This document shows positions 11,331 to 62,387 of a DNA stretch of 64,000 nucleotides, in pieces. A program made the translations under genes and the position numbers. Source of the stretch: Bryobacterales bacterium (GTDB lineage: Bacteria > Acidobacteriota > Terriglobia > Bryobacterales > UBA6623); the NCBI GenBank assembly GCA_965216215.1, contig CBDCFO010000006.1:208626-272625 (forward strand), written 5' to 3'. How positions within the stretch are numbered: the first letter of the stretch is position 1; every line of letters begins with the position of its first letter. The notes beneath the pieces were generated by a model, which saw only the letters and a program-made list of their open reading frames with translations, ran no database searches and was not told the DNA's origin.

Positions 11331-11964
11331 GCCCGGGCTGTGGACCAACCGCGAAACGGGTGGGCGCCCGGCCGGGCGCCCACCCCGCGGGCCGCCTCCA
11401 GCACGCCCGGCCCGGCCTGCCCAGTGCCGGCACGGGGGCCCCAGATAGGATGCTGATGATCACACCCACCAACGGAATCTGGGGCTCCCGTTGGTCGCCC
11501 TTTCGCCCCCCTCAGTGGCGATCCCCGCCGCTTTCCACGGACACCCTATAATGCCCTAGTCTCTCTTCCCCTCCTGGAGCCTCGTCCAGGCTTCTATGTT
11601 GGTCAGGGTGCACCGTGGACCTAGTCTTTGACTACTCTGGACTGGGTTGCGAAGCCCGGCGTCCAGCTCCGTTGGATGGCCGGGGAGCCATCCGCACCCC
11701 CTGCGGCTTAGCGGGCGGCGGGTCGGACCGTTTCGGGCTGGATTCGAGGAATCGGAAATGAGCTTGGTCGGCCCGCCGCAACCATCCCCCCGAGGCCTGG
11801 ACGAAAGGTTGGGCGCGAGGCCCGGATTGACGAGAAGCCAAGGCCGGGGGATGACTCGTATTCACTGTACTGTCCAGCGACAATTAGAAATTCCGGGTAA
11901 CGACAATTAAAAGTTCCGGGTGAGCCTCGTAGTTGGCGGCTAGACTCGACCCTTCCCAGGGAGG

Positions 11965-13464
11965 GTGGAGGCGTTGATCAAAAACCAACAAGTGAGGCTA
12001 CTGATGAAGGAACTAAGAAGGAACAAGCCGCTGGCAACGGCGGCGGCGAAAGCGGGCATGAGCGAGCGCACGGCTCGCAAATGGCGCGATAGCGGGAAGC
12101 TTCCGAGCGACCCCAGTCCAGCGCGGCACTGGCGGACGCGGGAGGATCCGTTGGAAGCGCTGTGGCCAGAGGCGGAGGCCCTGCTGCGAGCGGACCCGGG
12201 GCTGCAGGCGAAGGTGGTGTTCGAGGAGCTGCAGCGGCGCCATCCGGGGCAATTGCAGTCCGGGCAGTTGCGGACGTTGCAGCGGCGATTCCGGGCCTGG
12301 CGCGTGCGGCAGGGTCCGGACCGGGAAGTCTATTTCGAGCAGGAGCGGGAGCCGGGGGCGCAGTGCCAGTCGGACTTCACCGACATGGGCGCGCTGGGGG
12401 TGACGATCCGGGGCGAGCGGTACAAGCACCTGGTATACCGTTTCGTGCTGCCGTACTCGAACTGGGAGAGCGTGGCGATCGCGAGCTCGGAAACGTTCGA
12501 GGCGCTGGTCGGCGGACTGCAGGAGAGCCTGTGGGAGCTGGGCGGGGTGCCGCGGGAGCACCGGACCGATAATCTGTCGGCGGCGACGCACGAGTTGCGC
12601 CAGTCCGGCGGGCGGGCGTTCAACCGGGCGTACGAGGAGTTCCTGGCGCATTACGGGCTGGCGGCGAGCCGGAACTATCCGGGCAACGCGCACGAGAACG
12701 GGGACGTGGAAGCGGCGCACGGGCATTTCAAGACCGCGGTGGACCAGCGGCTGCGCCTGAGCGGGACACGCGATTTCAGTTCCGTGGAGCGCTACGCGCG
12801 GTTGCTGGACGAGATCGCCGGGCAGCGCAACAGCCGGCGCGGGGAGCGGCTGGCGGCGGAGCAGGCGGCGTTGCGGCCGCTGCCGCCGCGGCGGCTGCCG
12901 GTGTACCGGGAAGAGCGGCGCACGGTGACGCGCGGGAGCGTGGTGCGGGTGGCGAGCAAGGCGTACTCGGTGCCGTCGCGGCTGATCGGGGAGCAGCTGA
13001 CGGCGCGGCTGTACACCGATCGCGTCGAATTGCACTACGGCGGGAAACTGGTGGCGCGCCACGACCGGGCGCTGGGCAAGCAGCCGGGCCGGGTGGACTA
13101 CCGGCACGTGGCGCACGCGCTGTTGCGCAAGCCGGGGGCCTTCGCGCAATACCGCTACCGCGAGGAGATGTTTCCGTCAGAGGCCTTCCGGCGGGCCTAT
13201 GACAAGCTCTGCGAGGGGCGCTCGCAGGGGCACGCGGATCTCGAGTACGTGCGCATCCTGCACTTGGCGGCGACGACGCTGGAGACCCGTGTGGAGGCGG
13301 CCCTGCAGGGCTGCCTGGAGGCTGGCGAGCGGCCGTCGTTCGAGCGCGTCCGGGCGGCCGCGGCACCGCCGCGGCCGGAGGCGGAGGTGCCGGAGGTGCG
13401 CATCGCGGAACCAGACCTGGACGTCTACGACGAGTTGCTGGCGGACACGCGGGGGCTGTCGTGA
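11965..13464 (+). CDS. istA: IS21-family transposase IstA
   Basis: 499 aa with an N-terminal HTH (AAKAGMSERTARKWR) and a DDE core (QCQSDFTDMG...VLPYSNWE...HRTDNLSAA...NAHENGDVE). Its stop overlaps the istB start (13461..13464). Confidence 0.9.
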   Translation: MEALIKNQQVRLLMKELRRNKPLATAAAKAGMSERTARKWRDSGKLPSDPSPARHWRTREDPLEALWPEAEALLRADPGLQAKVVFEELQRRHPGQLQSGQLRTLQRRFRAWRVRQGPDREVYFEQEREPGAQCQSDFTDMGALGVTIRGERYKHLVYRFVLPYSNWESVAIASSETFEALVGGLQESLWELGGVPREHRTDNLSAATHELRQSGGRAFNRAYEEFLAHYGLAASRNYPGNAHENGDVEAAHGHFKTAVDQRLRLSGTRDFSSVERYARLLDEIAGQRNSRRGERLAAEQAALRPLPPRRLPVYREERRTVTRGSVVRVASKAYSVPSRLIGEQLTARLYTDRVELHYGGKLVARHDRALGKQPGRVDYRHVAHALLRKPGAFAQYRYREEMFPSEAFRRAYDKLCEGRSQGHADLEYVRILHLAATTLETRVEAALQGCLEAGERPSFERVRAAAAPPRPEAEVPEVRIAEPDLDVYDELLADTRGLS

Positions 13465-14231
13465 AGGGGCCGGAGCTGGCAGCGCTGCCAGGACGCCTGA
13501 AGGAGTTGCGCCTGCCGTCGTTCGCGGCGCATTGCGAACGGCTGGCGGAACAGGCCCGCAAGCAGGCCTGGGACCCGTTGCGCTACCTGGCGGAACTGGC
13601 CGCGGTCGAGACGGTCGAGCGGGCCGACCGGCGCGTGGCGCGACTGGCCAAGGAAGCCCGGCTGCCGCGGGGCAAGACGCTGGAAACGCTGGACTTGCTG
13701 CGTCTTCCCAAAGGCGTGAGGGGCCGCCTGCCAGTGCTGTGCGAGGGGGATTTCCTGGCCGACGCCGTCAATGTGTGTGTCTTCGGCAATCCGGGCGCGG
13801 GCAAGACCCATCTGATGGCGGCGCTGGGTGCCGAACTGGTGCAGCGTGGCCACTCGACGCTGTTCGCCCCGGCGCGCGCGCTGACCGAGCGCCTGGCCGG
13901 GGCCAAGCGCGAACTACGGCTGAGCCGCGAGCTCGACCGCCTCGACCGCTTCGAGTGCCTGCTGCTCGACGACATCGGCTACGTCCGGCAGGACCGTGCC
14001 GAGATGGAAGTGCTCTTCGAACTGCTGGCGCAACGCTACGAGCGCCGCAGCGTGATGCTGACGAGCAATCTGGTCTTCTCGCAATGGCAGCGCATTTTCC
14101 CTGACAAGATGACCGCGGCGGCGGCGGTCGACCGGGTGGTGCACCACTCGGTGATTCTGGAACTCGATATTGCCAGCTACCGGGCCGAGCAAGCGCGCCG
14201 GCGCCAGGGCGAGGCAAGCGAGAAGAGGTAG
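13461..14231 (+). CDS. istB: IS21 helper ATPase IstB
   Basis: 256 aa with Walker A GNPGAGKTHL, Walker B LLLDDIGY, and the typical IstB C-terminus (RRSVMLTSNLVFSQW...DRVVHHS). Confidence 0.9.
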   Translation: MKGPELAALPGRLKELRLPSFAAHCERLAEQARKQAWDPLRYLAELAAVETVERADRRVARLAKEARLPRGKTLETLDLLRLPKGVRGRLPVLCEGDFLADAVNVCVFGNPGAGKTHLMAALGAELVQRGHSTLFAPARALTERLAGAKRELRLSRELDRLDRFECLLLDDIGYVRQDRAEMEVLFELLAQRYERRSVMLTSNLVFSQWQRIFPDKMTAAAAVDRVVHHSVILELDIASYRAEQARRRQGEASEKR

Positions 14232-14552
14232 CCGTGCAGCGCTTCCAGCAATGCCTCCAGCCGGGGCGGTTCCACAGCGCGCGCGCTTTCCCCGCTATGG
14301 CGGTCACACGATCGCCAAAAAAGCAGCCGACCAACGGCGCCGAATTCCGGGCCAGGGGGCTCGCCCCCTGGCCCCTCTCGCACTGCCGACTGCCTTGCTC
14401 TCCCAGAGAGGGGGAGGCTGCGCTTCCCCCTGCTACCCCCTCCCTCTGCTACTATCCGAGGGCTGCATTGGTCGCCCTTCGGGCTCCCTCTGCCGCCCTC
14501 CAACTTACGGAGCACAACCGGCAATTCTAGTTGTCGCCACCGGCAAGAATAG

Positions 14553-15572
<1,020 letters not shown>

Positions 15573-15739
15573 ATACTGGATCGCTCCCGACCGGCCCTCC
15601 GCCCAGCGGCCCGAGGCGTAACCGAAGACCGAACATCCGAGCCGTACAGAACACGCAAGCTAGATTCTTTCTGGCAATCCCCGAAATATCCCTTGACATC
15701 GAACACGAAAGCTCATCTCTGGTTTGGAAAACACTCGAA

Positions 15740-15768
15740 CTGTTCCCCGCACACGCGGGGATGAACCC
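15740..15768 (+). CRISPR. Orphan type I-E CRISPR repeat (single copy)
   Basis: CTGTTCCCCGCACACGCGGGGATGAACCC matches the 62051.. array repeat at 28 of 29 positions. It lies 27 nt downstream of the IS110 copy-1 right end. Confidence 0.6.
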
Positions 15769-28165: not shown

Positions 28166-30037
28166 ATCGGGATAGGGGGAAGCCTCACGGCTCCACCCCT
28201 CCCACACCACCGTACATACGGGTCCGTATACGGCGGTTCGAACGGTGATGCTACTTCCGAACATGGAGGCTCGGCAGTCCCAGCGCGGTGAAATAGGCGT
28301 TCGGTAGGGCCAGAGCGAGTGCGGGACTGTTCGCCAAGCGCCAAGGTCCGTGCGCGCTGCCAGCCGCTTTGGCGGCCAGTTGCACGTTCACGCCCCGTCG
28401 GCGTAGCTCAGCATACCTCCGTCTCCCTCGTTTCCATTGCTTCCAAATCGCCGACCGCAGCCGCCTCCGGGTCCATTTTTCCAAGCGTGCCAGCACTGAA
28501 GGCGTCTCACACTTCCCGAAATAGCCGAGCCATCCCCGCCAATAGCGGGCTAGGTCCTCGACCATCCGTTCGTGGCTCACGCCCCGAGTCCGTCGCGTCA
28601 GCTCGCGCACCCGCCGCCGAAACCGCTGCACCGCTTGCGGTGCAATCCGCCGCTTCGGCTGGCCGTGTGCCGTGAAGCTGAAGCCGAGGAACTTCCGCTC
28701 CCATGGCCGCGCCACCGCGCTCTTGCTCTGGTTCACCCGCAAGCGGAGCGTCCCGGTGATGAAACGTGTCACGCTTTCCATCACGCGTTCCCCGGCGCGG
28801 CGACTGCTGACGTAGATATTGCAGTCATCCGCATACCGTGCGAACCGCAGCCCGCGTCGCTCCAACTCCCGGTCCAGTTCATCGAGCACGATGTTCGACA
28901 GCAAAGGGGAGAGCGGACCCCCTTGCGGGGTCCCCTCGTCCACCGTGCTCACCAGCCCGTCCTCCATCACACCGGCCGTCAGGAATGCCCGGATCAGCTT
29001 CAGCATCCGCTTGTCACCGATCCGTCGGGCCATCCGGGCCATCAAACGGTCGTGGTTCACTCGATCGAAGAATTTCTCCAAATCAAGATCTACCACCCAT
29101 CGCCGGCCCGCAGCCATCTGCTGCTGCGCCGCCTTGACCGCCTGATACGCCGAACGCCTCGGGCGAAACCCGTAGCTGTGTTCGGAAAACGTCCGGTCCC
29201 AGTGCTCCTGCAGGACCTGGGCCACCAACTGCTGGACGAATCGATCCAGCACCGTCGGTATGCCCAGCTTGCGCCTGCCCCCGCCCGGCTTCGGGATGTA
29301 CACCCGTCTCACCGGCTGCGGTCGGTAGGTCCCGCTCAGCAGCTGTTCCCGGATGGCCGGCCAGTGCTCGCGCAGGTGCCCGGGCAGATCGTCGACGGTC
29401 ATCCCGTCCACCCCCGGACTCCCCCGGTTTCCCCGGACTCGTGCCAGTGCCCGCTTGCAGTTGTCCCGCTCGCAGGCTCGCTCCATCCACTGTTCGTCTC
29501 TAGCCGGGCTTTCGTCCCGACGCCTCGCCGCGCTCGGTTCGGTCCCTTCCCCGGCCACTTCCGGGCCTTCACCCCTTCCATCGACCGGGAAGGCCAGCAC
29601 TAGCTGGATGTTCTGCCGCTTTCCGCTCACGAGAAACGCCGTCCTACTTGCCTCTCCGTTCGTTCAGGCCTTCGTCCTTGCCGGGACTACTATGCCGTCT
29701 GCTGACTTCTGCCGCCCGATCAGGTCGGATTGCTCCTTCCTCAGTCCAGAGTTCCGGACGGACGACAGATCTCCCGAGGTAAGCTCGTTCGCCTTCAGCG
29801 CACAACCGCCGGATTTACAACCAGCGCCCTTGATGGATCTGGACTTCGTCGTCAGTAGCCGACTCGTCCGACGCCGTATGCCTCGTATCCGGTTCTTGTC
29901 CATCGGCTCGCGCTTTTGTTCCACGCTTCCTTCAGACCCCGCCTCGCGACGACGCCCTTGCGCTTCACTAGGACTTCACCTCCATCAGGCTGTCCAAGGG
30001 ACTTTCACCCTCAAGCTAACGGGCATGCTCGGCACAC
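28166..30037 (-). mobile_element. Group II intron, copy A (1872 nt)
   Basis: The 5' end is GTGTGCCGAGCATGCCCGTTAGCTTGAGGGTGAAAGTCCC (30037 downward). The 3' end carries domain V/VI-like ...GAACCGCCGTATACGGACCCGTATGTACGGTGGTGTGGGAGGGGTGGAGCCGTGAGGCTTCCCCCTATCCCGAT (ending at 28166). An intact RT/maturase ORF lies inside. Confidence 0.8.
28251..29630 (-). CDS. Group II intron reverse transcriptase/maturase (no endonuclease domain evident)
   Basis: 459 aa with RT motifs (RRVYIPKPGGGRRKLGIPTVLDR, FSEHSYGFRPRRSAYQA, VVDLDLEKFFDRVNHD, GTPQGGPLSPLLSNIVL, RYADDCNIYV) and the maturase X domain (RYWRGWLGYFGKC). Confidence 0.9.
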   Translation of the reverse strand: MSGKRQNIQLVLAFPVDGRGEGPEVAGEGTEPSAARRRDESPARDEQWMERACERDNCKRALARVRGNRGSPGVDGMTVDDLPGHLREHWPAIREQLLSGTYRPQPVRRVYIPKPGGGRRKLGIPTVLDRFVQQLVAQVLQEHWDRTFSEHSYGFRPRRSAYQAVKAAQQQMAAGRRWVVDLDLEKFFDRVNHDRLMARMARRIGDKRMLKLIRAFLTAGVMEDGLVSTVDEGTPQGGPLSPLLSNIVLDELDRELERRGLRFARYADDCNIYVSSRRAGERVMESVTRFITGTLRLRVNQSKSAVARPWERKFLGFSFTAHGQPKRRIAPQAVQRFRRRVRELTRRTRGVSHERMVEDLARYWRGWLGYFGKCETPSVLARLEKWTRRRLRSAIWKQWKRGRRRYAELRRRGVNVQLAAKAAGSAHGPWRLANSPALALALPNAYFTALGLPSLHVRK

Positions 30038-30039
30038 CA

Positions 30040-31911
30040 ATCGGGATAGGGGGAAGCCTCACGGCTCCACCCCTCCCACACCACCGTACATACGGGTCCG
30101 TATACGGCGGTTCGAACGGTGATGCTACTTCCGGATCTGGAGTCGCGGCAGGCCGAGCGAGGCGAAGTAGGCGTTAGGCAGTGCATAAGAAAGAGCGGGG
30201 CTTGCGGCCAAGCGCCAAGGGCCGTGGGCGCTGCCAGCAGTTCGAGCCGCCAGCCCTACACGCACATCCCTGCGACGCAGTTCCACGTATCTCCGCCTCC
30301 CACGTTTCCACTGTTTCCAGATCGCCGACCGCAACCTTCGCCGGGTCCACCCCTCTAAGCTTGCCAGCACGTATGGCGTTTCGCACTTCCCGAAATAGCC
30401 GAGCCATCCCCGCCCATAGCGGGCTATGTCCTCGACCATCCGTTCGTGGCTCACGCCCCGAGTCCGTCGCGTCAGCTCGCGCACCCGCCGCCGAAACCGC
30501 TGCACCGCTTGCGGTGCAATCCGCCGCTTCGGTTGTGGGTCCGATGACAGGCTGAAGCCCAGGAACTTCCGCTCCCATGGCCGCGCCACCGCGCTCTTGC
30601 TCTGGTTCACCCGCAAGCGGAGCGTCCCGGTGATGAAACGCGTCACGCTTTCCATCACGCGTTCCCCGGCCCGGCGACTGCCCACATAAATGTTGCAGTC
30701 GTCCGCGTACCGTGCGAACCGCAGCCCGCGTCGCTCCAGCTCCCGGTCCAGCTCGTCGAGCACGATGTTCGACAACAAGGGTGAGAGCGGGCCCCCTTGC
30801 GGGGTCCCCTCGTCCACCGGGCTCACCAGCCCGTCCTCCATCACACCGGCCGTCAGGAATGCCCGGACCAGCTTCAGCATCCGCTTGTCACTGATCCGTC
30901 GGGCCATCCGGGCCATCAAACGGTCGTGGTTCACTCGATCGAAGAATTTCTCCAAATCAAGATCTATCACCCATCGCCGACCCGCAGCCATCTGCCGCTG
31001 GGCCGCCTCGACCGCCTGATGCGCCGAACGCCCCGGGCGAAACCCGTAGCTGTGTTCGGAGAACGTCCGGTCCCAGTGCTCCTGCAGGACCTGGGCCACC
31101 AACTGCTGGACGAATCGATCCAGCACCGTCGGTATGCCCAGCTTGCGCCTGCCTCCGCCCGGCTTCGGGATGTACACCCGTCTCACCGGCTGCGGTCGGT
31201 AGGTCCCGCTCAGCAGCTGTTCCCGGATGGCCGGCCAGTGCTCGCGCAGGTGCCCGGGCAGATCGTCGACGGTCATCCCGTCCACCCCCGGACTCCCCCG
31301 GTTTCCCCGGACTCGTGCCAGCGCCCGCTTGCAGTTGCTCCGCTCGCAGGCTCGCTCCATCCACTGTTCGTCTGTAGTCGGGCTTTCGTCTCGTCGTCCC
31401 GCCGTGTGCGGTTCGGTCCCTTCCCCTGTCGCTTCCGGGGCTTCACCCCCTCCGTCGACCGGGAAGGCCAGCACTAGCTGGATGTTCTGCCGCATTCCAC
31501 TCACGAGAAACGCCGTTCTACTCGCCCCTCCGTCCGTTCAGGCCTTCGCCCCTTGCGGGGCTACTATGCCGTCTGCTGACTTCTGCCGTCCGGTCAGGTC
31601 GGACTACTCCTCCCTCAGTCCGGAATCCCGGACGGACGGCAGACCTCCCGAGGTAAGTTCGACAGCCTTCAGCGCACAACCGCCGGATTTACAACCAGCG
31701 CCCTTGATGGAACTGGACTTCGTCGTCATCGGCCGACTCGTCCGACGCTGTATGCCTCGTATCCGGTTCTTGTTCATCGGCTCGCGCCTTTGCTCCACGC
31801 TTCCTTCAGACCCCGCCTCGCAGCGACGCCCTTGCGCTTCGCTAGGACTTCACCTCCATCAGGTTGTCCAAGGGACTTCCACCCTCAAGCTGCCGAACAT
31901 GCTCGGCACAC
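30040..31911 (-). mobile_element. Group II intron, copy B (1872 nt), inserted directly after a terminator
   Basis: The 5' end is GTGTGCCGAGCATGTTCGGCAGCTTGAGGGTGGAAGTCCC at 31911. The 3' end ...CCCTATCCCGAT is at 30040. Only 2 nt (TG) separate it from copy A. Confidence 0.8.
30125..31504 (-). CDS. Group II intron reverse transcriptase/maturase
   Basis: 459 aa, near-identical to 28251..29630 with scattered substitutions, and carrying the same RT and X motifs. Confidence 0.9.
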   Translation of the reverse strand: MSGMRQNIQLVLAFPVDGGGEAPEATGEGTEPHTAGRRDESPTTDEQWMERACERSNCKRALARVRGNRGSPGVDGMTVDDLPGHLREHWPAIREQLLSGTYRPQPVRRVYIPKPGGGRRKLGIPTVLDRFVQQLVAQVLQEHWDRTFSEHSYGFRPGRSAHQAVEAAQRQMAAGRRWVIDLDLEKFFDRVNHDRLMARMARRISDKRMLKLVRAFLTAGVMEDGLVSPVDEGTPQGGPLSPLLSNIVLDELDRELERRGLRFARYADDCNIYVGSRRAGERVMESVTRFITGTLRLRVNQSKSAVARPWERKFLGFSLSSDPQPKRRIAPQAVQRFRRRVRELTRRTRGVSHERMVEDIARYGRGWLGYFGKCETPYVLASLEGWTRRRLRSAIWKQWKRGRRRYVELRRRDVRVGLAARTAGSAHGPWRLAASPALSYALPNAYFASLGLPRLQIRK

Positions 31912-47443: not shown

Positions 47444-47477
47444 CACCGTCGAAAATCGAGCCCGAACCCGAATTCCT

Positions 47478-47774
47478 TTTATGTTAGAGAGGTGCCGGAG
47501 AGAGGGATGGTCGCCACTGCCTCGGACTCTCTCTCCCCAGTGCCGCAGGTGGCGATAGCCACCGCTGCGGCAGGTAACAGATCCCTCCCTGCCCCAGCGC
47601 AGGGAGGCCCCCGGTGGGGCCTGGCCAGGCCCCACCGGGGGCGACGGGCCGGACCGTTTCACCCTCGGATATCAGATCCGTACTTAAGCTTGGTCGGCCT
47701 GTCGCAGCAATTCCTGCGCGACCTGAACGGAAGCGCGGATCAGACCCGCATCGCAAAAGGATAGGTACGCAGGA
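47478..47774 (+). ncRNA. Candidate IS110 bridge (guide) RNA in the left non-coding end
   Basis: The region has no coding potential and is densely structured. It includes the hairpin GCCGCAGGTGGC-GATA-GCCACCGCTGCGGC and a 36-bp perfect palindrome at 47607..47642. It shares the conserved blocks CGGACCGTTTC and AGCTTGGTCGGCC with copy 1. Variable segments are complementary to its own insertion junction (see findings). Confidence 0.45.
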
Positions 47775-48746
47775 ATGACACCTCCCACACCCACTGTAGT
47801 CGCCGGCATCGACGTCGGCAAGGCTAAGCTCGACGCCCACATTCTCGCAGGCGGAGTTGAGCGCCAGTTTGACAACACCAAGACCGGTCGCCGCGCCCTG
47901 CGCAACTGGCTGCTCAAGCACGACGTCACCCGGGCCGTATTCGAACCCACCGGCCGCTACCATCGCAACCTTCACCAGTGCCTTGCTGAAGCTGGCTTCG
48001 AGACCGTCCTGGTCAACCCCTTGCGCTCCCGGCGCTTCGCCGAAGCCATAGGAAGGCTCGCCAAGAATGACCGCGTCGATGCCGCCATGCTCGCTCGCTT
48101 TGGCCTCCTCGACGGCCTGGAAGCCACCCCGCCCCAGCCGCACAACCTCCAGCTGCTCAATGACTTGCTCGCCCTCCGCCGCAAACTCCTCGAGCAGCTC
48201 GGCGCCCTCCGCAAGCTCGCCGCCGAACTCGACCCCGAGGCCGCCGGCTGCCTCGGCACCACCCTCAAGGCCCTGCAGGCCGACATCGCTGCCTGCGACC
48301 GCCGCATGCGCCACTGCATCGCTGCCGACGCCGCACTCTCCCGTCGCGACGCCATCATCCAGTCGATCCCCGGCTTCGGCCCCGTCAACGCCGCCTCCCT
48401 CTGCGCCGCCATGCCCGAACTCGGCAGCCTCGGCCGCCGCAAGGCCGCCTCCCTCTTCGGCCTCGCCCCCTTCGACCGCGACTCCGGCCAGCACCGCGGC
48501 AGCCGCGCCATCCGTGGTGGCCGCGCCCAGCCCCGCCACCTGCTCTACATGGCCGCCATGTCCGCGATTCGCCACGAGCCTGCCTCCAAGGCCTGCTACC
48601 AGCGCCTCACCGCCGACGGCAAACCGCACAAAGTTGCTCTCGTCGCTGTCATGCGCAAGCTTGCCGGCCTGCTCGACACCCTCCTCCGCGCAGACCGCCT
48701 CTGGCTGCCCGAGCCGCCCAACTGCGAACTGGAGGCCGCCGCGTGA
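47775..48746 (+). CDS. IS110-family (DEDD) transposase/recombinase, copy 2
   Basis: 323 aa with VAGIDVGKAKLD...FEPTGRYH...KNDRVDA, and SIPGFGPVNAASLCAAMPELG...FDRDSGQHRGSRAIRGGR. Confidence 0.9.
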   Translation: MTPPTPTVVAGIDVGKAKLDAHILAGGVERQFDNTKTGRRALRNWLLKHDVTRAVFEPTGRYHRNLHQCLAEAGFETVLVNPLRSRRFAEAIGRLAKNDRVDAAMLARFGLLDGLEATPPQPHNLQLLNDLLALRRKLLEQLGALRKLAAELDPEAAGCLGTTLKALQADIAACDRRMRHCIAADAALSRRDAIIQSIPGFGPVNAASLCAAMPELGSLGRRKAASLFGLAPFDRDSGQHRGSRAIRGGRAQPRHLLYMAAMSAIRHEPASKACYQRLTADGKPHKVALVAVMRKLAGLLDTLLRADRLWLPEPPNCELEAAA

Positions 48747-48861
48747 TACGTCTGCTGGCATCCCCCCAACCTAAGGTCGGCACTGCGAGGAAACCCCGCC
48801 TCAATCGCCTCTCATCACCACTCTTCCCCGAAATTACCCTTGACAAGAAACACGGAAGCTT

Positions 48862-49174
48862 AAGTCAATGCGCTTCTGCAACTAAGTCAATGCCATTGGC
48901 GGCGCAGCTGGCCACCGCGATCCGGATCGAGCCCAACGGCAAGCATCCGGCGCGCGACGCCCAGGCCGGCATGTACGTGCTGCGCAAACGTCTGGCCCAG
49001 GCGGGCCTACGCCCCAGTTGGGAGACGATCCACTGCCAGCTCGCCGGCTGGGTCCGCCTCACCACCTCCCTGCGCGCGGCCGACGGCCGCTGGATCCAGT
49101 GCCGCCAGGACTCCCGCCCGGACGCCAAAGCCGCAGAACTGGCCCAGGCCATCGGCCTGGTGCCGCGCCTGTAG
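48862..49174 (+). pseudogene. C-terminal tail of an IS4/IS1634-like transposase (fragment)
   Basis: ...AQLATAIRIEPNGKHPARDAQAGMYVLRKRLAQAGLRPSWETIHCQLAGWVRLTTSLRAADGRWIQCRQDSRPDAKAAELAQAIGL resembles the C-terminal tail architecture of the IS1634 transposase at 63146.. (LQTLLDHLGSLTLNQVTL...RPTPLQAKAFALLEV). Confidence 0.4.
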
Positions 49175-51060
49175 TGTGCCGAGCATGCCCGTTAGCTTGA
49201 GGGTGAAAGTCCCTTGGACAGCCTGATGGAGGTGAAGTCCTAGTGAAGCGCAAGGGCGTCGTCGCGAGGCGGGGTCTGAAGGAAGCGTGGAACAAAAGCG
49301 CGAGCCGATGGACAAGAACCGGATACGAGGCATACGGCGTCGGACGAGTCGGCTACTGACGACGAAGTCCAGATCCATCAAGGGCGCTGGTTGTAAATCC
49401 GGCGGTTGTGCGCTGAAGGCGAACGAGCTTACCTCGGGAGATCTGTCGTCCGTCCGGAACTCTGGACTGAGGAAGGAGCAATCCGACCTGATCGGGCGGC
49501 AGAAGTCAGCAGACGGCATAGTAGTCCCGGCAAGGACGAAGGCCTGAACGAACGGAGAGGCAAGTAGGACGGCGTTTCTCGTGAGCGGAAAGCGGCAGAA
49601 CATCCAGCTAGTGCTGGCCTTCCCGGTCGATGGAAGGGGTGAAGCCCCGGAAGTGGCCGGGGAAGGGACCGAACCGAGCGCGGCGAGGCGTCGGGACGAA
49701 AGCCCGGCTAGAGACGAACAGTGGATGGAGCGAGCCTGCGAGCGGGACAACTGCAAGCGGGCGCTGGCACGAGTCCGTGCGAACCGGGGGAGTCCGGGTG
49801 TGGACGGGATGACCGTCGACGAGCTGCCCGGTCACCTGCGGGAGCACTGGCCGGCCATCCGGGAACAGCTGCTGAGCGGGACCTACAGGCCGCAGCCGGT
49901 GAGGCGGGTACACATCCCGAAACCGAGCGGTGGCAGGCGCAAGCTGGGCATACCAACCGTGCTGGATCGATTCGTCCAGCAGTTGGTGGCCCAGATCCTG
50001 CAGGAGCACTGGGACCGGACGTTTTCCGAACACAGCTACGGGTTTCGCCCGGGGCGTTCGGCGCATCAGGCGGTCGAGGCGGCGCAGCAGCAGATGGCTG
50101 CGGGCCGGCGATGGGTGGTAGATCTTGATTTGGAGAAATTCTTCGATCGAGTGAACCACGACCGTTTGATGGCCCGGATGGCCCGACGGATCGGTGACAA
50201 GCGGATGCTGAAGCTGATCCGGGCATTCCTGACGGCCGGTGTGATGGAGGACGGGCTGGTGAGCACGGTGGACGAGGGGACCCCGCAAGGGGGTCCGCTC
50301 TCACCCCTGCTGTCGAACATCGTGCTCGACGAACTGGACCGGGAGTTGGAGCGACGCGGGCTGCGGTTCGCACGGTACGCGGACGACTGCAACATTTATG
50401 TGGGCAGTCGCCGGGCCGTGATGGAAAGCGTGACGCGTTTCATCGGTTGGGAACCGTGATGGAAAGCGTGACGCATCACCCGCTTGCGGGTGAACCAGAG
50501 CAAGAGCGCGGTGGCGCGGCCATGGAAACGGAAGTTCCTGGGATTCAGCCTCACGGCACACCGCAAGCCGAAGCGGCGGCTCGCGCCGCAGACGGTGCAG
50601 CGGTTCCGGCGGCGGGTGCGGGAACTGACGCGACGGACTCGGGGCGTGAGTCACGAACGGATGGTGGCGGACCTGGCCCGCTATTGGCGGGGCTGGCTCG
50701 GCTACTTCGGGAAGTGCGAGACGCCATCGGTGCTGGCAAGCTTGGAACGATGGACCCGGCGACGGCTGCGGTCGGCGATCTGGAAACAGTGGAAACGAGG
50801 GAGACGGAGGTACGCCGAGCTACGCCGCCTGGGCGTGGACGTGGAACTAGCCGCACAAACGGCTGGTAGCGCCCACGGCCCCTGGCGCATGGCCAATAGC
50901 CCTGCTCTCCACCGCGCCCTCTCGAACGCCTACTTCGCTGCGCTGGGGCTACCGGGACTCCATCTTCGGACCTAGCTCAACCGGTCGAACCGCCGTATAC
51001 GGACCCGTATGTACGGTGGTGTGGGAGGGGTGGAGCCGCGAGGCTTCCCCCTATCCCGAT
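49174..51060 (+). mobile_element. Group II intron, third full-length copy (plus strand), with disrupted IEP
   Basis: The 5' end GTGTGCCGAGCATGCCCGTTAGCTTGAGGGTGAAAGTCCC is at 49174. The 3' end ...CTTCCCCCTATCCCGAT is at 51060. Confidence 0.8.
49581..50975 (+). pseudogene. Group II intron RT/maturase disrupted by a local duplication/frameshift
   Basis: ORF 49581..50459 ends right after YADDCNIYVGSRRA. The 21-nt sequence CCGTGATGGAAAGCGTGACGC is present twice (50416..50436 and 50454..50474). The maturase part resumes in ORF 50484..50975. Confidence 0.85.
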
Positions 51061-52167: not shown

Positions 52168-52256
52168 GGGTTCCCCCGCCTATGCGGGATAGACCCTTGC
52201 CCCGAAACCAGTCTTTCTGTATGTAGGTGGTTCCCCGCACACGCCGGGATGAACCC
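52168..52256 (+). CRISPR. Degenerate CRISPR remnant with a variant I-E-like repeat
   Basis: The first repeat, 52168..52196, is GGGTTCCCCCGCCTATGCGGGATAGACCC. A 31-nt spacer follows. The second repeat, 52228..52256, is TGGTTCCCCGCACACGCCGGGATGAACCC. A further very degenerate repeat-like stretch lies near 52295. Confidence 0.55.
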
Positions 52257-62050: not shown

Positions 62051-62387
62051 GTCTGTTCCCCGCACACGCGGGGATGAACCGCCCTCTTGTTACGGCACCC
62101 TTCTCGCACATGGCTGTTCCCCGCACACGCGGGGATGAACCGGGATGGAGCATCCGTGCAGCGTCTTCAAGAAGGCTGTTCCCCGCACACGCGGGGATGA
62201 ACCGGTCCTTCGAGCTGGGCTATCCTCACAAAGCCCCTGTTCCCCGCACACGCGGGGATGAACCGGCTTCGAGGCCACCCGATTCCCCCGCCTTGAACCG
62301 TTCCCCGCACACGCGGGGATGAACCGAGGCTGTTACCGCCAGCTCGGGCCATGGTGCCCTGTTCCCCGCACACGCGCACGCACCAAC
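62051..62387 (+). CRISPR. Type I-E CRISPR array: 6 repeats (29 nt), 5 spacers (32-33 nt)
   Basis: The repeat CTGTTCCCCGCACACGCGGGGATGAACCG occurs at 62051, 62112, 62174, 62235 and 62297 (the last with 1 mismatch). A degenerate last repeat at 62359 reads CTGTTCCCCGCACACGCGCACGCACCAAC. Spacers are 32, 33, 32, 33 and 33 nt. Confidence 0.95.

What the first reader, a model, noticed from the sequence alone, without database searches (positions are those of the whole stretch)
47478..47774. IS110 left ends look like programmable bridge-RNA genes: guide-like segments co-vary with each copy's own insertion junction
Two intact IS110-family recombinase genes (14595..15572 and 47775..48746) are each preceded by a non-coding left end (LE) of about 300 nt.

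1. Conserved blocks. The two LEs share CGGACCGTTTC (11724..11734 and 47650..47660) and AGCTTGGTCGGCC (11761..11773 and 47687..47699), separated by divergent sequence.

2. Structure. LE-2 is densely structured. It contains GCCGCAGGTGGC-GATA-GCCACCGCTGCGGC and a 36-bp perfect palindrome at 47607..47642.

3. Junction promoter. Both right ends carry TTGACA (15693..15698 and 48840..48845) exactly 13 nt before a CT dinucleotide. Both LEs begin CT + 2 nt + TATGTT (11595..11600 and 47480..47485). An excised circle would therefore create TTGACA-N17-TATGTT reading into the LE.

4. Right-junction complementarity. The variable 8-10 nt immediately 5' of the conserved TTGGTCGGCC is reverse-complementary to that copy's own RE-CT-right-flank junction. 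In copy 2, ACTTAAGC (47682..47689) pairs with GCTTAAGT (48858..48865) at 8/8 positions. In copy 1, GGAAATGAGC (11754..11763) pairs with GCTCATCTCT (15711..15720) at 8/10.

5. Left-flank matches. In copy 1, GCCTGGACGA (11795..11804) is the exact reverse complement of left flank plus core TCGTCCAGGC (11582..11591). In copy 2, AATTCCT (47709..47715) equals left flank plus core (47471..47477).

This is the architecture described for IS110/IS621 bridge RNAs: an LE-encoded ncRNA, a circle-junction promoter, a CT core, and separate target and donor guides. Here two diverged copies give an internal covariation test.
Basis: partly seen in the sequence, partly recalled or inferred. Interest (0 to 1): 0.75.

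Follow-up and report, generated by a model that had tools for sequence, protein, structure and literature searches.

The report
IS110 bridge-RNA genes, two diverged copies
The non-coding left ends of two IS110-family insertion sequences in this window encode canonical bridge (guide) RNAs, a mechanism described in 2024, so the finding is real but is a new example of a known system.

Summary
Both ORFs are IS110 DEDD/Ser recombinases homologous to IS621.

I tested the bridge-RNA reading on 72 close relatives (Bryobacterales MAGs) and 43 distant metagenomic relatives, and it holds.
- **Fold:** two stem-loops, each with an internal loop. 35 of 38 pairs show compensatory changes.
- **Target guides:** they covary with the flanks. 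No class permutation (0/5000 and 0/2000) reached the observed match.
- **Donor guides:** they match the right-end tip and the left-end start, with compensatory changes between the two window copies.
- **Promoter:** the circle junction gives TTGACA-N17-TATNNT in all relatives.
- **Copy 1:** a covariance model built without copy 1 finds it at 79 bits.

- Copy 1's left end is separated from its ORF by a 2.7-kb IS21.
- AATTCCT (47709-15) is invariant. It is a strand of the donor-loop basal stem and pairs with the Shine-Dalgarno/start region. It is not a guide.
- GCCTGGACGA lies on conserved scaffold in the wrong orientation.
- The real left-target guides are 47658-65 and 11732-39. Copy 2's matches its own left flank only at CCT.

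Verdict: a new member of a known kind, of low-to-moderate interest. No expression or activity data exist.

The parts
47476..48860 (+). Copy 2: complete IS110-group element, including the CT core at each junction (47476-77 and 48859-60)
   Evidence: In 72 relatives, sequence similarity starts at CT|TTTAT and ends at AACACGGAAG|CT, and the flanks diverge immediately outside.
47480..47485 (+). -10 hexamer TATGTT of the circle-junction promoter
   Evidence: With TTGACA at 48840-45 it gives TTGACA-N17-TATGTT on the excised circle. TATNNT is present in 72/72 relatives, which vary only at positions 4-5.
47497..47606 (+). 5' leader hairpins 1-3 (47497-47536, 47541-47572, 47585-47606)
   Evidence: MFE fold with z = -7.2. 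The RNAalifold consensus shows compensatory pairs. Distant relatives have only about 70 nt of leader.
47607..47642 (+). 36-bp perfect palindrome (leader hairpin 4)
   Evidence: Confirmed. At least 12 sequence variants occur in relatives, and each is still a perfect palindrome including its apex. Many compensatory pairs are seen.
47643..47705 (+). Target-binding stem-loop: basal stem, internal loop, inner hairpin 47666-47680
   Evidence: Covariance model R1 and RNAalifold. Helices 1 and 2 are 89-92% paired, with 18 of 20 pairs showing compensatory changes.
47658..47665 (+). Left-target guide TTCACCCT (same sense as left flank plus core)
   Evidence: This position covaries with the left flank across 23 guide classes. 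In copy 2 itself only CCT matches the flank GAATTCCT (3 of 8).
47681..47690 (+). Right-target guide TACTTAAG, followed by handshake bases CT
   Evidence: ACTTAAG is the reverse complement of core plus right flank CTTAAGT at 48859-65. It covaries in the family. The CT pairs with the AG at the right-end tip, as described for IS621 handshake guides.
47710..47776 (+). Donor-binding stem-loop. Its basal stem ATTCCTGCG (47710-18) pairs with CGCAGGAAT (47768-76), which contains the Shine-Dalgarno AGGA and the A of the ATG.
   Evidence: Compensatory changes: L078 has TTCCTACG/CGTAGGAA and copy 1 has ATCCCCC/GGGGGAT. Helix 3 has 7 of 7 pairs with compensatory change.
47727..47734 (+). Left-donor guide ACGGAAGC
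   Evidence: Identical to the right-end tip plus the core C at 48852-59. In distant relatives a 7-9-nt exact match lies just after the stop codon.
47755..47761 (+). Right-donor guide AAAAG, followed by handshake bases GA
   Evidence: AAAAG is the reverse complement of CTTTT at 47476-80. GA is the reverse complement of TC, the last two left-flank bases. Copy 1 has AGAAG/CTTCT and CC/GG.
47775..48746 (+). Recombinase gene (323 aa)
   Evidence: PF01548 + PF02371. NF033542 'IS110 family RNA-guided transposase', 204.6 bits. IS621 structure 8wt6, E = 5e-30, with the D/E/D/D/S motifs aligned.
48747..48860 (+). Right end (112 nt plus core), with -35 TTGACA at 48840-45 and donor tip ACGGAAG at 48852-58
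11591..15713 (+). Copy 2's diverged counterpart, copy 1: an IS110-group element (recombinase 52% identical to copy 2), interrupted by an IS21
   Evidence: Cores are at 11591-92 and 15712-13, TATGTT at 11595-600 and TTGACA at 15693-98. The circle junction gives N17 spacing.
11711..11853 (+). Copy 1 bridge-RNA core (target and donor loops). Left-target guide 11732-39 TTCGGGCT; right-target guide 11755-62 GAAATGAG plus CT; left-donor guide 11801-07 ACGAAAG; right-donor guide 11833-37 AGAAG plus CC.
   Evidence: R1, built without this sequence, scores 79.2 bits, E = 5e-17, over its full length. The left-target guide matches its flank at 6 of 8 and the right-target guide at 7 of 8. The left-donor guide equals the right-end tip at 15705-11.
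11871..14565 (+). IS21 (istA 11965-13464, istB 13461-14231) inserted between copy 1's bridge-RNA gene and its recombinase gene
   Evidence: Pfam hits rve/Mu-transpos_C_2 and IstB_IS21. Terminal repeats TGTCCAGCGACAA/TTGTCGCTGGACA and target duplication CTGTAC.
14595..15572 (+). Copy 1 recombinase gene (325 aa)

Best explanation
Both loci are IS110-group insertion sequences, and the left end of each encodes a canonical bridge RNA.

**Proposed cycle.**
1. Excision joins the right end to the left end across the CT core. This assembles a sigma-70 promoter (TTGACA-N17-TATGTT) that reads into the left end.
2. The transcript folds into leader hairpins followed by two stem-loops, each with an internal loop.
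3. In the first loop, the 5' side has the same sense as the left flank plus CT, and the 3' side is antisense to CT plus the right flank. Together these select the insertion site.
4. In the second loop, the 5' side equals the right-end tip, and the 3' side is antisense to CT plus the left-end start. Together these hold the element's own junction.
5. Two bases 3' of each antisense guide pair with the other DNA after strand exchange (handshake bases).
6. The DEDD/Ser recombinase then recombines at CT.

**Shown here:** the sequence anatomy, the RNA-level covariation of the fold, the covariation between guides and flanks and between guides and element ends, promoter conservation, and homology to IS621.

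**Inferred from IS621 work:** transcription, recombinase binding and catalysis.

**State of the two copies.**
- Copy 2 looks intact, but its left-target guide does not match its current left flank.
- Copy 1 has an intact RNA gene and an intact ORF, but an IS21 uncouples them.
For: - **Protein.** PF01548 + PF02371. NF033542 'IS110 family RNA-guided transposase' at 205 and 189 bits. IS621 structure 8wt6 at E = 5e-30 with catalytic motifs aligned.
- **Boundaries and core.** 72 Bryobacterales relatives diverge exactly outside CT|TTTAT and GGAAG|CT.
- **Fold.** RNAalifold finds two internal-loop stem-loops with G-U pairs valid only on the + strand. The MFE z-score is -7.2. On 36 distinct distant sequences, 91.3% of cells are paired against 36-51% when partners are slid. 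35 of 38 pairs show compensatory change, and 0 of 500 shuffles reach this.
- **Copy 1.** A model built without it recovers it at 79.2 bits.
- **Target guides.** With 23 classes, left guide against left flank matches 3.43 of 6 versus 2.18 +/- 0.23 when permuted. Right guide against right flank matches 4.14 of 6 versus 1.71 +/- 0.38. None of 5000 permutations reached these. In the distant set the mean longest shared run is 6.3 versus 3.2-3.4, with 0 of 2000. Single-base co-changes occur, such as L030 versus L002 and L091 versus L086.
- **Donor guides.** ACGGAAG in copy 2 and ACGAAAG in copy 1 track the respective right-end tips. AAAAG and AGAAG track CTTTT and CTTCT. 7-9-nt exact matches occur in distant relatives.
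- **Promoter.** TTGACA in 67 of 72, TATNNT in 72 of 72, and fixed N17 spacing. No promoter-like site is found in the integrated configuration.
- **Handshake bases.** They behave as described for IS621.
Against: - There are no expression, circle-junction or activity data.
- Copy 2's left-target guide matches its own left flank at only 3 of 8 positions. That places it in the bottom ~12% of events.
- About 10% of relatives (L018, L019, L029, L044 and others) sit in sites that do not fit their guides.
- L077's left-donor guide is degenerate.
- Alignment A4 was fitted to the model, which inflates the pairing counts somewhat.
- Rfam 15 gave no hit at gathering threshold, so there was no independent curated model to compare with.
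- In copy 1 the IS21 separates the RNA gene from the ORF, so cis expression from the junction promoter is doubtful.
Confidence: 0.9

Rival explanations
1. The left end is only a structured 5' UTR or translational operator for the recombinase. Site choice would be made by the protein reading DNA, and the flank complementarities would be incidental.
For: The 3' strand of the donor-loop basal stem contains the Shine-Dalgarno sequence and start codon in copy 2. The same holds in most relatives, so a translational role is plausible.
Against: Guide segments change in step with flanks across 23 + 21 guide classes, while the protein stays 66-84% identical. The polarity is the IS621 pattern: 5' side sense, 3' side antisense, core included. 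A translational role can coexist with guiding.
Confidence: 0.04
2. The complementarities noted in the two window copies are chance matches in GC-rich sequence.
For: Some are. The 10-nt inverted match in copy 1 arises in 1.2% of shuffles, and AATTCCT is invariant scaffold.
Against: The right-target, left-donor and right-donor matches sit at exactly the positions that covary family-wide, and no permutation reached the observed match. A model trained on other sequences finds copy 1 at E = 5e-17.
Confidence: 0.02
3. These are bridge-RNA genes by descent, but both window copies are now immobile relics. Copy 1 is uncoupled by the IS21. Copy 2 carries a drifted left-target guide, or a left flank swapped by recombination between IS copies.
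For: The IS21 lies between the RNA gene and the ORF. Copy 2's left-target guide matches its flank at 3 of 8. Chimeric flanks occur in relatives such as L029, L018 and L019. No second identical copy is present in the window.
Against: Both ORFs are full length with catalytic motifs. Copy 2's left end, right end, promoter halves and donor guides match the family consensus. A mismatch with the present flank does not stop a guide from directing the next insertion.
Confidence: 0.3

Closest known systems
IS621 bridge RNA / bridge recombinase (Durrant et al. 2024, PMC11208160; Hiraizumi et al. 2024, PMC11208158)
   Same: - DEDD + Ser recombinase (E = 5e-30 to 8wt6).
- RNA encoded in the left end upstream of the CDS.
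- CT core and a sigma-70 promoter rebuilt on the circle.
- A target-binding loop followed by a donor-binding loop.
- 5' sides sense and 3' sides antisense, with the core included.
- Two handshake bases that pair with the non-cognate DNA.
   Different: - Only distant protein similarity.
- The host is Bryobacterales (Acidobacteriota).
- The copy 2 lineage has a ~165-nt leader with four hairpins, including a 36-bp perfect palindrome, where IS621 has one 5' stem-loop.
- The copy 2 right end is 112 nt.
- The basal stem of the donor loop overlaps the Shine-Dalgarno sequence and start codon.
- Nothing has been tested experimentally.
ISCro4 transposase (PDB 9t56)
   Same: Second solved homologue, E = 6.5e-30, with the same domain pair.
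   Different: I compared only the proteins, not its RNA.
seekRNA of IS1111/IS110 elements (Siddiquee et al. 2024, PMC11187229)
   Same: The same concept under another name: a non-coding-region RNA whose short segments match the flanks of the target.
   Different: IS1111-group elements encode the RNA in the right end and have 7-17-bp subterminal inverted repeats. Here the RNA is in the left end, and the longest end-to-end inverted repeat is 4 bp.
ISPpu10 'structure-gated' bridge recombinase (bioRxiv 10.64898/2026.03.19.712850, abstract only)
   Same: An IS110-family bridge RNA with variation in its 5' architecture. It reports a target-side hairpin requirement. Copy 1's left flank ends in a hairpin, CCTGGA-GCCTCG-TCCAGG, directly before CT.
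   Different: ISPpu10 lacks the 5' stem-loop, whereas the copy 2 lineage has four. A hairpin requirement was not tested here.

Membership tests
IS110-group bridge-RNA element (IS621 type) | [quoted passage not shown] | tested here: met
   Both ORFs hit both Pfam families. Both exceed the NF033542 cutoff. In copy 2's alignment to IS621 8wt6, the D, E, D..D and S motifs are conserved.
IS110-group bridge-RNA element (IS621 type) | Long non-coding left end upstream of the CDS, longer than the right end, and holding the RNA | tested here: met
   Left ends are 299 and 303 nt; right ends are 112 and 139 nt. The model hits lie in the left end on the + strand.
IS110-group bridge-RNA element (IS621 type) | Recombination at a short core (CT) present at both junctions, with no terminal inverted repeats | tested here: met
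   Flanks of 72 relatives diverge immediately outside CT at both ends. The longest end-to-end inverted repeat is 4 bp. No empty site was recovered.
IS110-group bridge-RNA element (IS621 type) | Sigma-70 promoter reconstituted across the right-end/core/left-end circle junction | tested here: met
   This holds at sequence level only. TTGACA-N17-TATGTT is present in both copies. TTGACA occurs in 67 of 72 relatives and TATNNT in 72 of 72. No promoter-like site is found in the linear context. Transcription was not testable.
IS110-group bridge-RNA element (IS621 type) | RNA fold with two stem-loops, each bearing an internal loop, supported by covariation | tested here: met
   35 of 38 pairs are compensatory, 91% paired versus 36-51% when slid, and 0 of 500 shuffles reach this.
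IS110-group bridge-RNA element (IS621 type) | First-loop guides covary with the target: 5' side has the sense of left flank plus core, 3' side is antisense to core plus right flank | tested here: met
   At family level, 0 of 5000 and 0 of 2000 permutations reach the observed match. Copy 1 matches at 6 of 8 and 7 of 8. Copy 2's right-target guide matches at 7 of 8, but its left-target guide only at 3 of 8.
IS110-group bridge-RNA element (IS621 type) | Second-loop guides match the element's own right-end tip and left-end start | tested here: met
   ACGGAAGC and ACGAAAG equal the right-end tips. AAAAG and AGAAG are the reverse complements of CTTTT and CTTCT. 7-9-nt matches occur in distant relatives.
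IS110-group bridge-RNA element (IS621 type) | Handshake bases 3' of each antisense guide pair with the non-cognate DNA, not the cognate DNA | tested here: met
   In the target loop, CT pairs with the right-end tip AG in both copies. In the donor loop, GA (copy 2) and CC (copy 1) pair with the last two left-flank bases, TC and GG.
IS110-group bridge-RNA element (IS621 type) | RNA is expressed, binds the recombinase, and is required for recombination | not testable with these tools
   This needs RNA-seq, binding and recombination assays.
IS110-group bridge-RNA element (IS621 type) | Match to a curated bridge-RNA covariance model | tested here: inconclusive
   Rfam 15 gave no bridge-RNA hit at gathering or at E <= 10. 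I cannot tell whether Rfam holds such a family. The published IS621 model was not available.
IS1111 group (RNA encoded in the right end) | Subterminal inverted repeats of 7-17 bp, a right end longer than the left end, and the RNA in the right end | tested here: not met
   The longest inverted repeat between the first and last 50 nt is 4 bp. The left end is longer than the right end. The RNA model hits the left end.

The most novel reading that the evidence does not exclude
In this clade the bridge RNA may also act as the recombinase's translational operator. The 3' strand of the donor-loop basal helix is the Shine-Dalgarno/start region. This holds in copy 2 and in most of ~35 distinct distant relatives, so folding or recombinase binding would gate recombinase synthesis.

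In addition, the Bryobacterales lineage has added a long leader. Its 32-36-bp palindrome stays perfectly symmetric, apex included, through at least 12 sequence variants. That suggests a DNA-level or RNase III-type processing role not described for IS621.
Probability: 0.25. Interest if true: 0.45.

Novelty: new member of a known kind. Interest (0 to 1): 0.27.

Why it matters
This adds no new biology at the level of principle. NCBI already names this protein family 'RNA-guided transposase', and bridge RNAs were predicted for about 86% of catalogued IS110 elements.

The value is practical.
- It provides a validated covariance model and guide map for an acidobacterial (Bryobacterales) bridge-recombinase clade.
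- That clade shows at least 23 naturally reprogrammed guide pairs on a near-constant scaffold.
- It provides corrected guide coordinates for the two window copies.
- It raises two secondary leads: the ribosome-binding site lies inside the donor-loop stem, and the leader carries a perfectly symmetric palindrome.

Tried and rejected
- **Rfam 15 search.** Searching the whole window at gathering threshold, and the left end at E <= 10, gave no bridge-RNA family. The hits were palindrome-driven miRNA noise and a weak minus-strand sX15 hit.
- **AATTCCT (47709-15) as a left-target guide.** Rejected. It is invariant in relatives and pairs with CGCAGGAAT.
- **GCCTGGACGA (11795-804) as a guide.** Rejected. 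It lies on conserved scaffold plus the left-donor guide, has the wrong polarity, and has a 1.2% chance rate.
- **Close relatives of copy 1.** The metagenome scan returned nothing above 49% identity. A lineage-specific covariation test for copy 1 was therefore impossible, and I used those loci as a distant test set instead.
- **Empty target sites.** Searching the fetched loci for two guide classes gave no matches.
- **Exact TATGTT as a left-end marker.** This failed in many relatives because the -10 hexamer varies at positions 4-5. I used alignment instead.
- **The second R1 hit on the minus strand at 47612-47709 (26.7 bits).** This is an artefact of the palindromic sequence.

Full report
**1. 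Checking the observation**

This covers:
- the two shared blocks;
- the hairpin at 47542-47571;
- the 36-bp perfect palindrome at 47607-47642;
- TTGACA 13 nt before a CT in both right ends;
- CT + 2 nt + TATGTT at both left ends.

Both ORFs carry the IS110 domain pair PF01548 + PF02371. They are 52% identical to each other.

One statement is wrong for copy 1. Its ORF is not directly preceded by its left end. A complete IS21 occupies 11871-14565, with istA and istB, 13-bp perfect terminal repeats and a CTGTAC duplication. With the IS21 removed, the copy 1 left end is 303 nt. The copy 2 left end is 299 nt.

**2. Gathering relatives**

A genome scan with the two recombinases returned 80 loci. All came from Bryobacterales MAGs and were 66-84% identical to copy 2, with many copies per genome.

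In these loci the right end is conserved up to AACACGGAAG-CT, and the left end is conserved from CT-TTTAT onward. The sequence diverges immediately outside these points. This fixes the CT core and the element boundaries. Copy 2 spans 47476-48860 and copy 1 spans 11591-15713.

The longest inverted repeat between the two ends is 4 bp. These are therefore IS110-group elements, not IS1111-group elements.

**3. The RNA fold**

RNAalifold on 22 non-redundant left ends gives four leader hairpins followed by two stem-loops, each with an internal loop. Several G-U pairs are valid only on the + strand. Copy 2 alone folds with z = -7.2.

I built a covariance model (R1) of the last 142 nt from 24 copy 2-family sequences, excluding copy 1.
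- In the window it finds copy 2 at 152.8 bits.
- It finds copy 1 at 11711-11853 with 79.2 bits, E = 5e-17, over its full length.
- It also hits 43 of 80 distant metagenomic IS110 loci (34-49% protein identity). Each hit is on the + strand just upstream of the ORF.

On those 36 distinct distant sequences:
- 91.3% of cells form standard pairs, against 36-51% when partners are slid;
- 35 of 38 pairs show changes on both sides;
- no shuffle out of 500 reaches the observed values.

One caveat applies: that alignment was fitted to the model.

**4. Target guides**

The published rules state two things. The 5' side of the first loop has the sense of the left flank plus core. The 3' side is antisense to the core plus the right flank.

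In the close family the variable 8 nt after GGACCGT and the variable 8 nt before CTTGGTC behave exactly this way.
- There are 23 guide classes.
- Non-core matches for the left guide against the left flank are 3.43 of 6, versus 2.18 +/- 0.23 for permuted classes.
- For the right guide against the right flank they are 4.14 of 6, versus 1.71 +/- 0.38.
- None of 5000 permutations reached either value.

In the distant set the mean longest shared run is 6.26 and 6.30 nt, versus 3.2 and 3.4 for permuted classes, with 0 of 2000.

Single-base co-changes are visible. Examples are L030 versus L002 (CCCAG/CTGGG against CTCAG/CTGAG) and L091 versus L086.

| Copy | Left-target guide | Match to left flank + core | Right-target guide | Match to core + right flank |
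|---|---|---|---|---|
| Copy 2 | TTCACCCT (47658-65) | 3 of 8 (only CCT) | TACTTAAG (47681-88) | 7 of 8 |
| Copy 1 | TTCGGGCT (11732-39) | 6 of 8 | GAAATGAG (11755-62) | 7 of 8 |

**5. Donor guides and handshake bases**

| Feature | Copy 2 | Copy 1 |
|---|---|---|
| Left-donor guide | ACGGAAGC (47727-34) | ACGAAAG (11801-07) |
| Right-end tip it matches | tip plus core C, 48852-59 | 15705-11 |
| Right-donor guide | AAAAG (47755-59) | AGAAG (11833-37) |
| Left-end start it pairs with | CTTTT | CTTCT |

These are two compensatory differences between the window copies. In distant relatives the left-donor guide has a 7-9-nt exact match just after the stop codon. The right-donor guide matches about 70 nt upstream of the model start.

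The two bases 3' of each antisense guide behave like the IS621 handshake guides.
- CT in the target loop pairs with the right-end tip AG.
- GA (copy 2) and CC (copy 1) in the donor loop pair with the last two left-flank bases, TC and GG.

**6. Promoter**

The reconstructed circle junction gives TTGACA-N17-TATGTT in both copies. Across 72 relatives the -35 is TTGACA in 67. The -10 is TATNNT in all 72, with variation only at positions 4-5 and fixed spacing. No promoter-like site is found in the integrated configuration of copy 2. All of this is sequence-level evidence only.

**7.

- AATTCCT (47709-15) is invariant in relatives regardless of flank. It is the 5' strand of the donor-loop basal stem. 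ATTCCTGCG at 47710-18 pairs with CGCAGGAAT at 47768-76, which contains the Shine-Dalgarno AGGA and the A of the ATG. Compensatory changes support this stem: L078 has TTCCTACG/CGTAGGAA, and copy 1 has ATCCCCC/GGGGGAT.
- GCCTGGACGA (11795-804) lies on conserved scaffold plus the left-donor guide. It is antisense where a left-target guide must be sense, and it has a 1.2% chance rate.

**8. Caveats**

- Copy 2's left-target guide does not fit its present left flank. That places it in the bottom ~12% of events.
- About 10% of relatives show similar misfits. Some are clearly chimeric: L029 has a left flank fitting its own guide class and a right flank fitting another class. I infer recombination between IS copies, or guide drift, but this is not shown.
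- Copy 1's RNA gene and ORF are each intact but uncoupled by the IS21.
- No expression or activity data exist.

**9. Comparison with known systems, and novelty**

The protein hits NCBIfam NF033542, 'IS110 family RNA-guided transposase'. It also hits the solved IS621 and ISCro4 recombinases at about E = 5e-30.

The anatomy meets every sequence-testable defining feature of the IS621-type system (Durrant 2024, Hiraizumi 2024). Those authors predicted bridge RNAs in 85.7% of catalogued IS110 elements. The same idea was published as seekRNA.

This is therefore a new member of a known kind. Its lineage-specific features are:
- a ~165-nt four-hairpin leader, against ~70 nt in distant relatives;
- a perfectly symmetric 32-36-bp palindrome that persists through at least 12 sequence variants;
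- a Shine-Dalgarno sequence embedded in the donor-loop basal stem in most relatives.

I found no mention of the Shine-Dalgarno feature in the papers searched.

**10. Verdict**

It is not novel in kind. Interest is 0.27.

Noticed in passing
window 11871-14565: A complete IS21 (istA 11965-13464, istB 13461-14231). It has 13-bp perfect terminal repeats and a CTGTAC target duplication. It is inserted 17 nt after the end of copy 1's bridge-RNA core and 29 nt before the recombinase ATG.
   Followed up: yes
window 62055-62325; solo repeats at 15742-15767 and 52230-52255: A CRISPR array of five GTTCCCCGCACACGCGGGGATGAACC repeats at ~61-nt period, plus two isolated repeats. One isolated repeat lies 28 nt to the right of copy 1's right junction, so copy 1 may sit in a leader or in a fragmented array.
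   Followed up: partly
window ~28166-29953 (-), ~30040-31827 (-), 49258-51060 (+): Three group II intron copies, with Rfam D1-D4 and domain V/VI hits above gathering threshold. One begins ~400 nt to the right of copy 2.
   Followed up: no
window 47607-47642, and the same position in L001-L080: The left-end palindrome stays a perfect DNA palindrome, including its apex (TGGCCA, TTGCAA, CGGCCG), through at least 12 sequence variants. One lineage (L003-L007) has a symmetric central deletion that leaves the 12-bp palindrome GCCCCCGGGGGC. An RNA hairpin alone would not need a self-complementary loop.
   Followed up: partly
L005, L017, L021, L024 (left junction, around locus positions 1160-1200): In these copies the left core CT and flank are replaced by a shared hairpin-containing sequence (...TTTCATGCCGTCGGGGTGAACGGCA..CATGTGAG) that abuts TTTAT exactly. 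It looks like another repeat or mobile element joined to the IS110 left end.
   Followed up: no
L081-L160 (model R1 3' ends) and window 47768-47777: In most distinct distant relatives the start codon lies 0-6 nt after the model's 3' end. The purine-rich Shine-Dalgarno sequence is therefore the 3' strand of the donor-loop basal stem. Copy 1 is an exception: its ATG lies 41 nt downstream once the IS21 is removed.
   Followed up: partly
L018, L019, L029, L044: These copies have guides that fit one target class while one or both flanks belong to another class. This suggests rearrangement between IS copies or off-target insertion.
   Followed up: partly
window 48861-48898: Copy 2's right flank TAAGTCAATGC is followed 23 nt later by a second AAGTCAATGCCATTG. 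That sequence resembles the right flank of the L022/L026/L027/L029 insertions (AAAGTYAGTGCCATTG). The target may be a repeated motif.
   Followed up: partly
window 47641-47706 (-): A weak Rfam hit to the Xanthomonadaceae sRNA sX15, antisense to the target-binding stem-loop. It scores 25.9 bits against a gathering score of 55, E = 0.022. It is probably noise.
   Followed up: no
window 11556-11592: Copy 1's left flank ends in a hairpin, CCTGGA-GCCTCG-TCCAGG, directly before the CT core. This recalls the target-side hairpin reported for ISPpu10 (abstract only).
   Followed up: no
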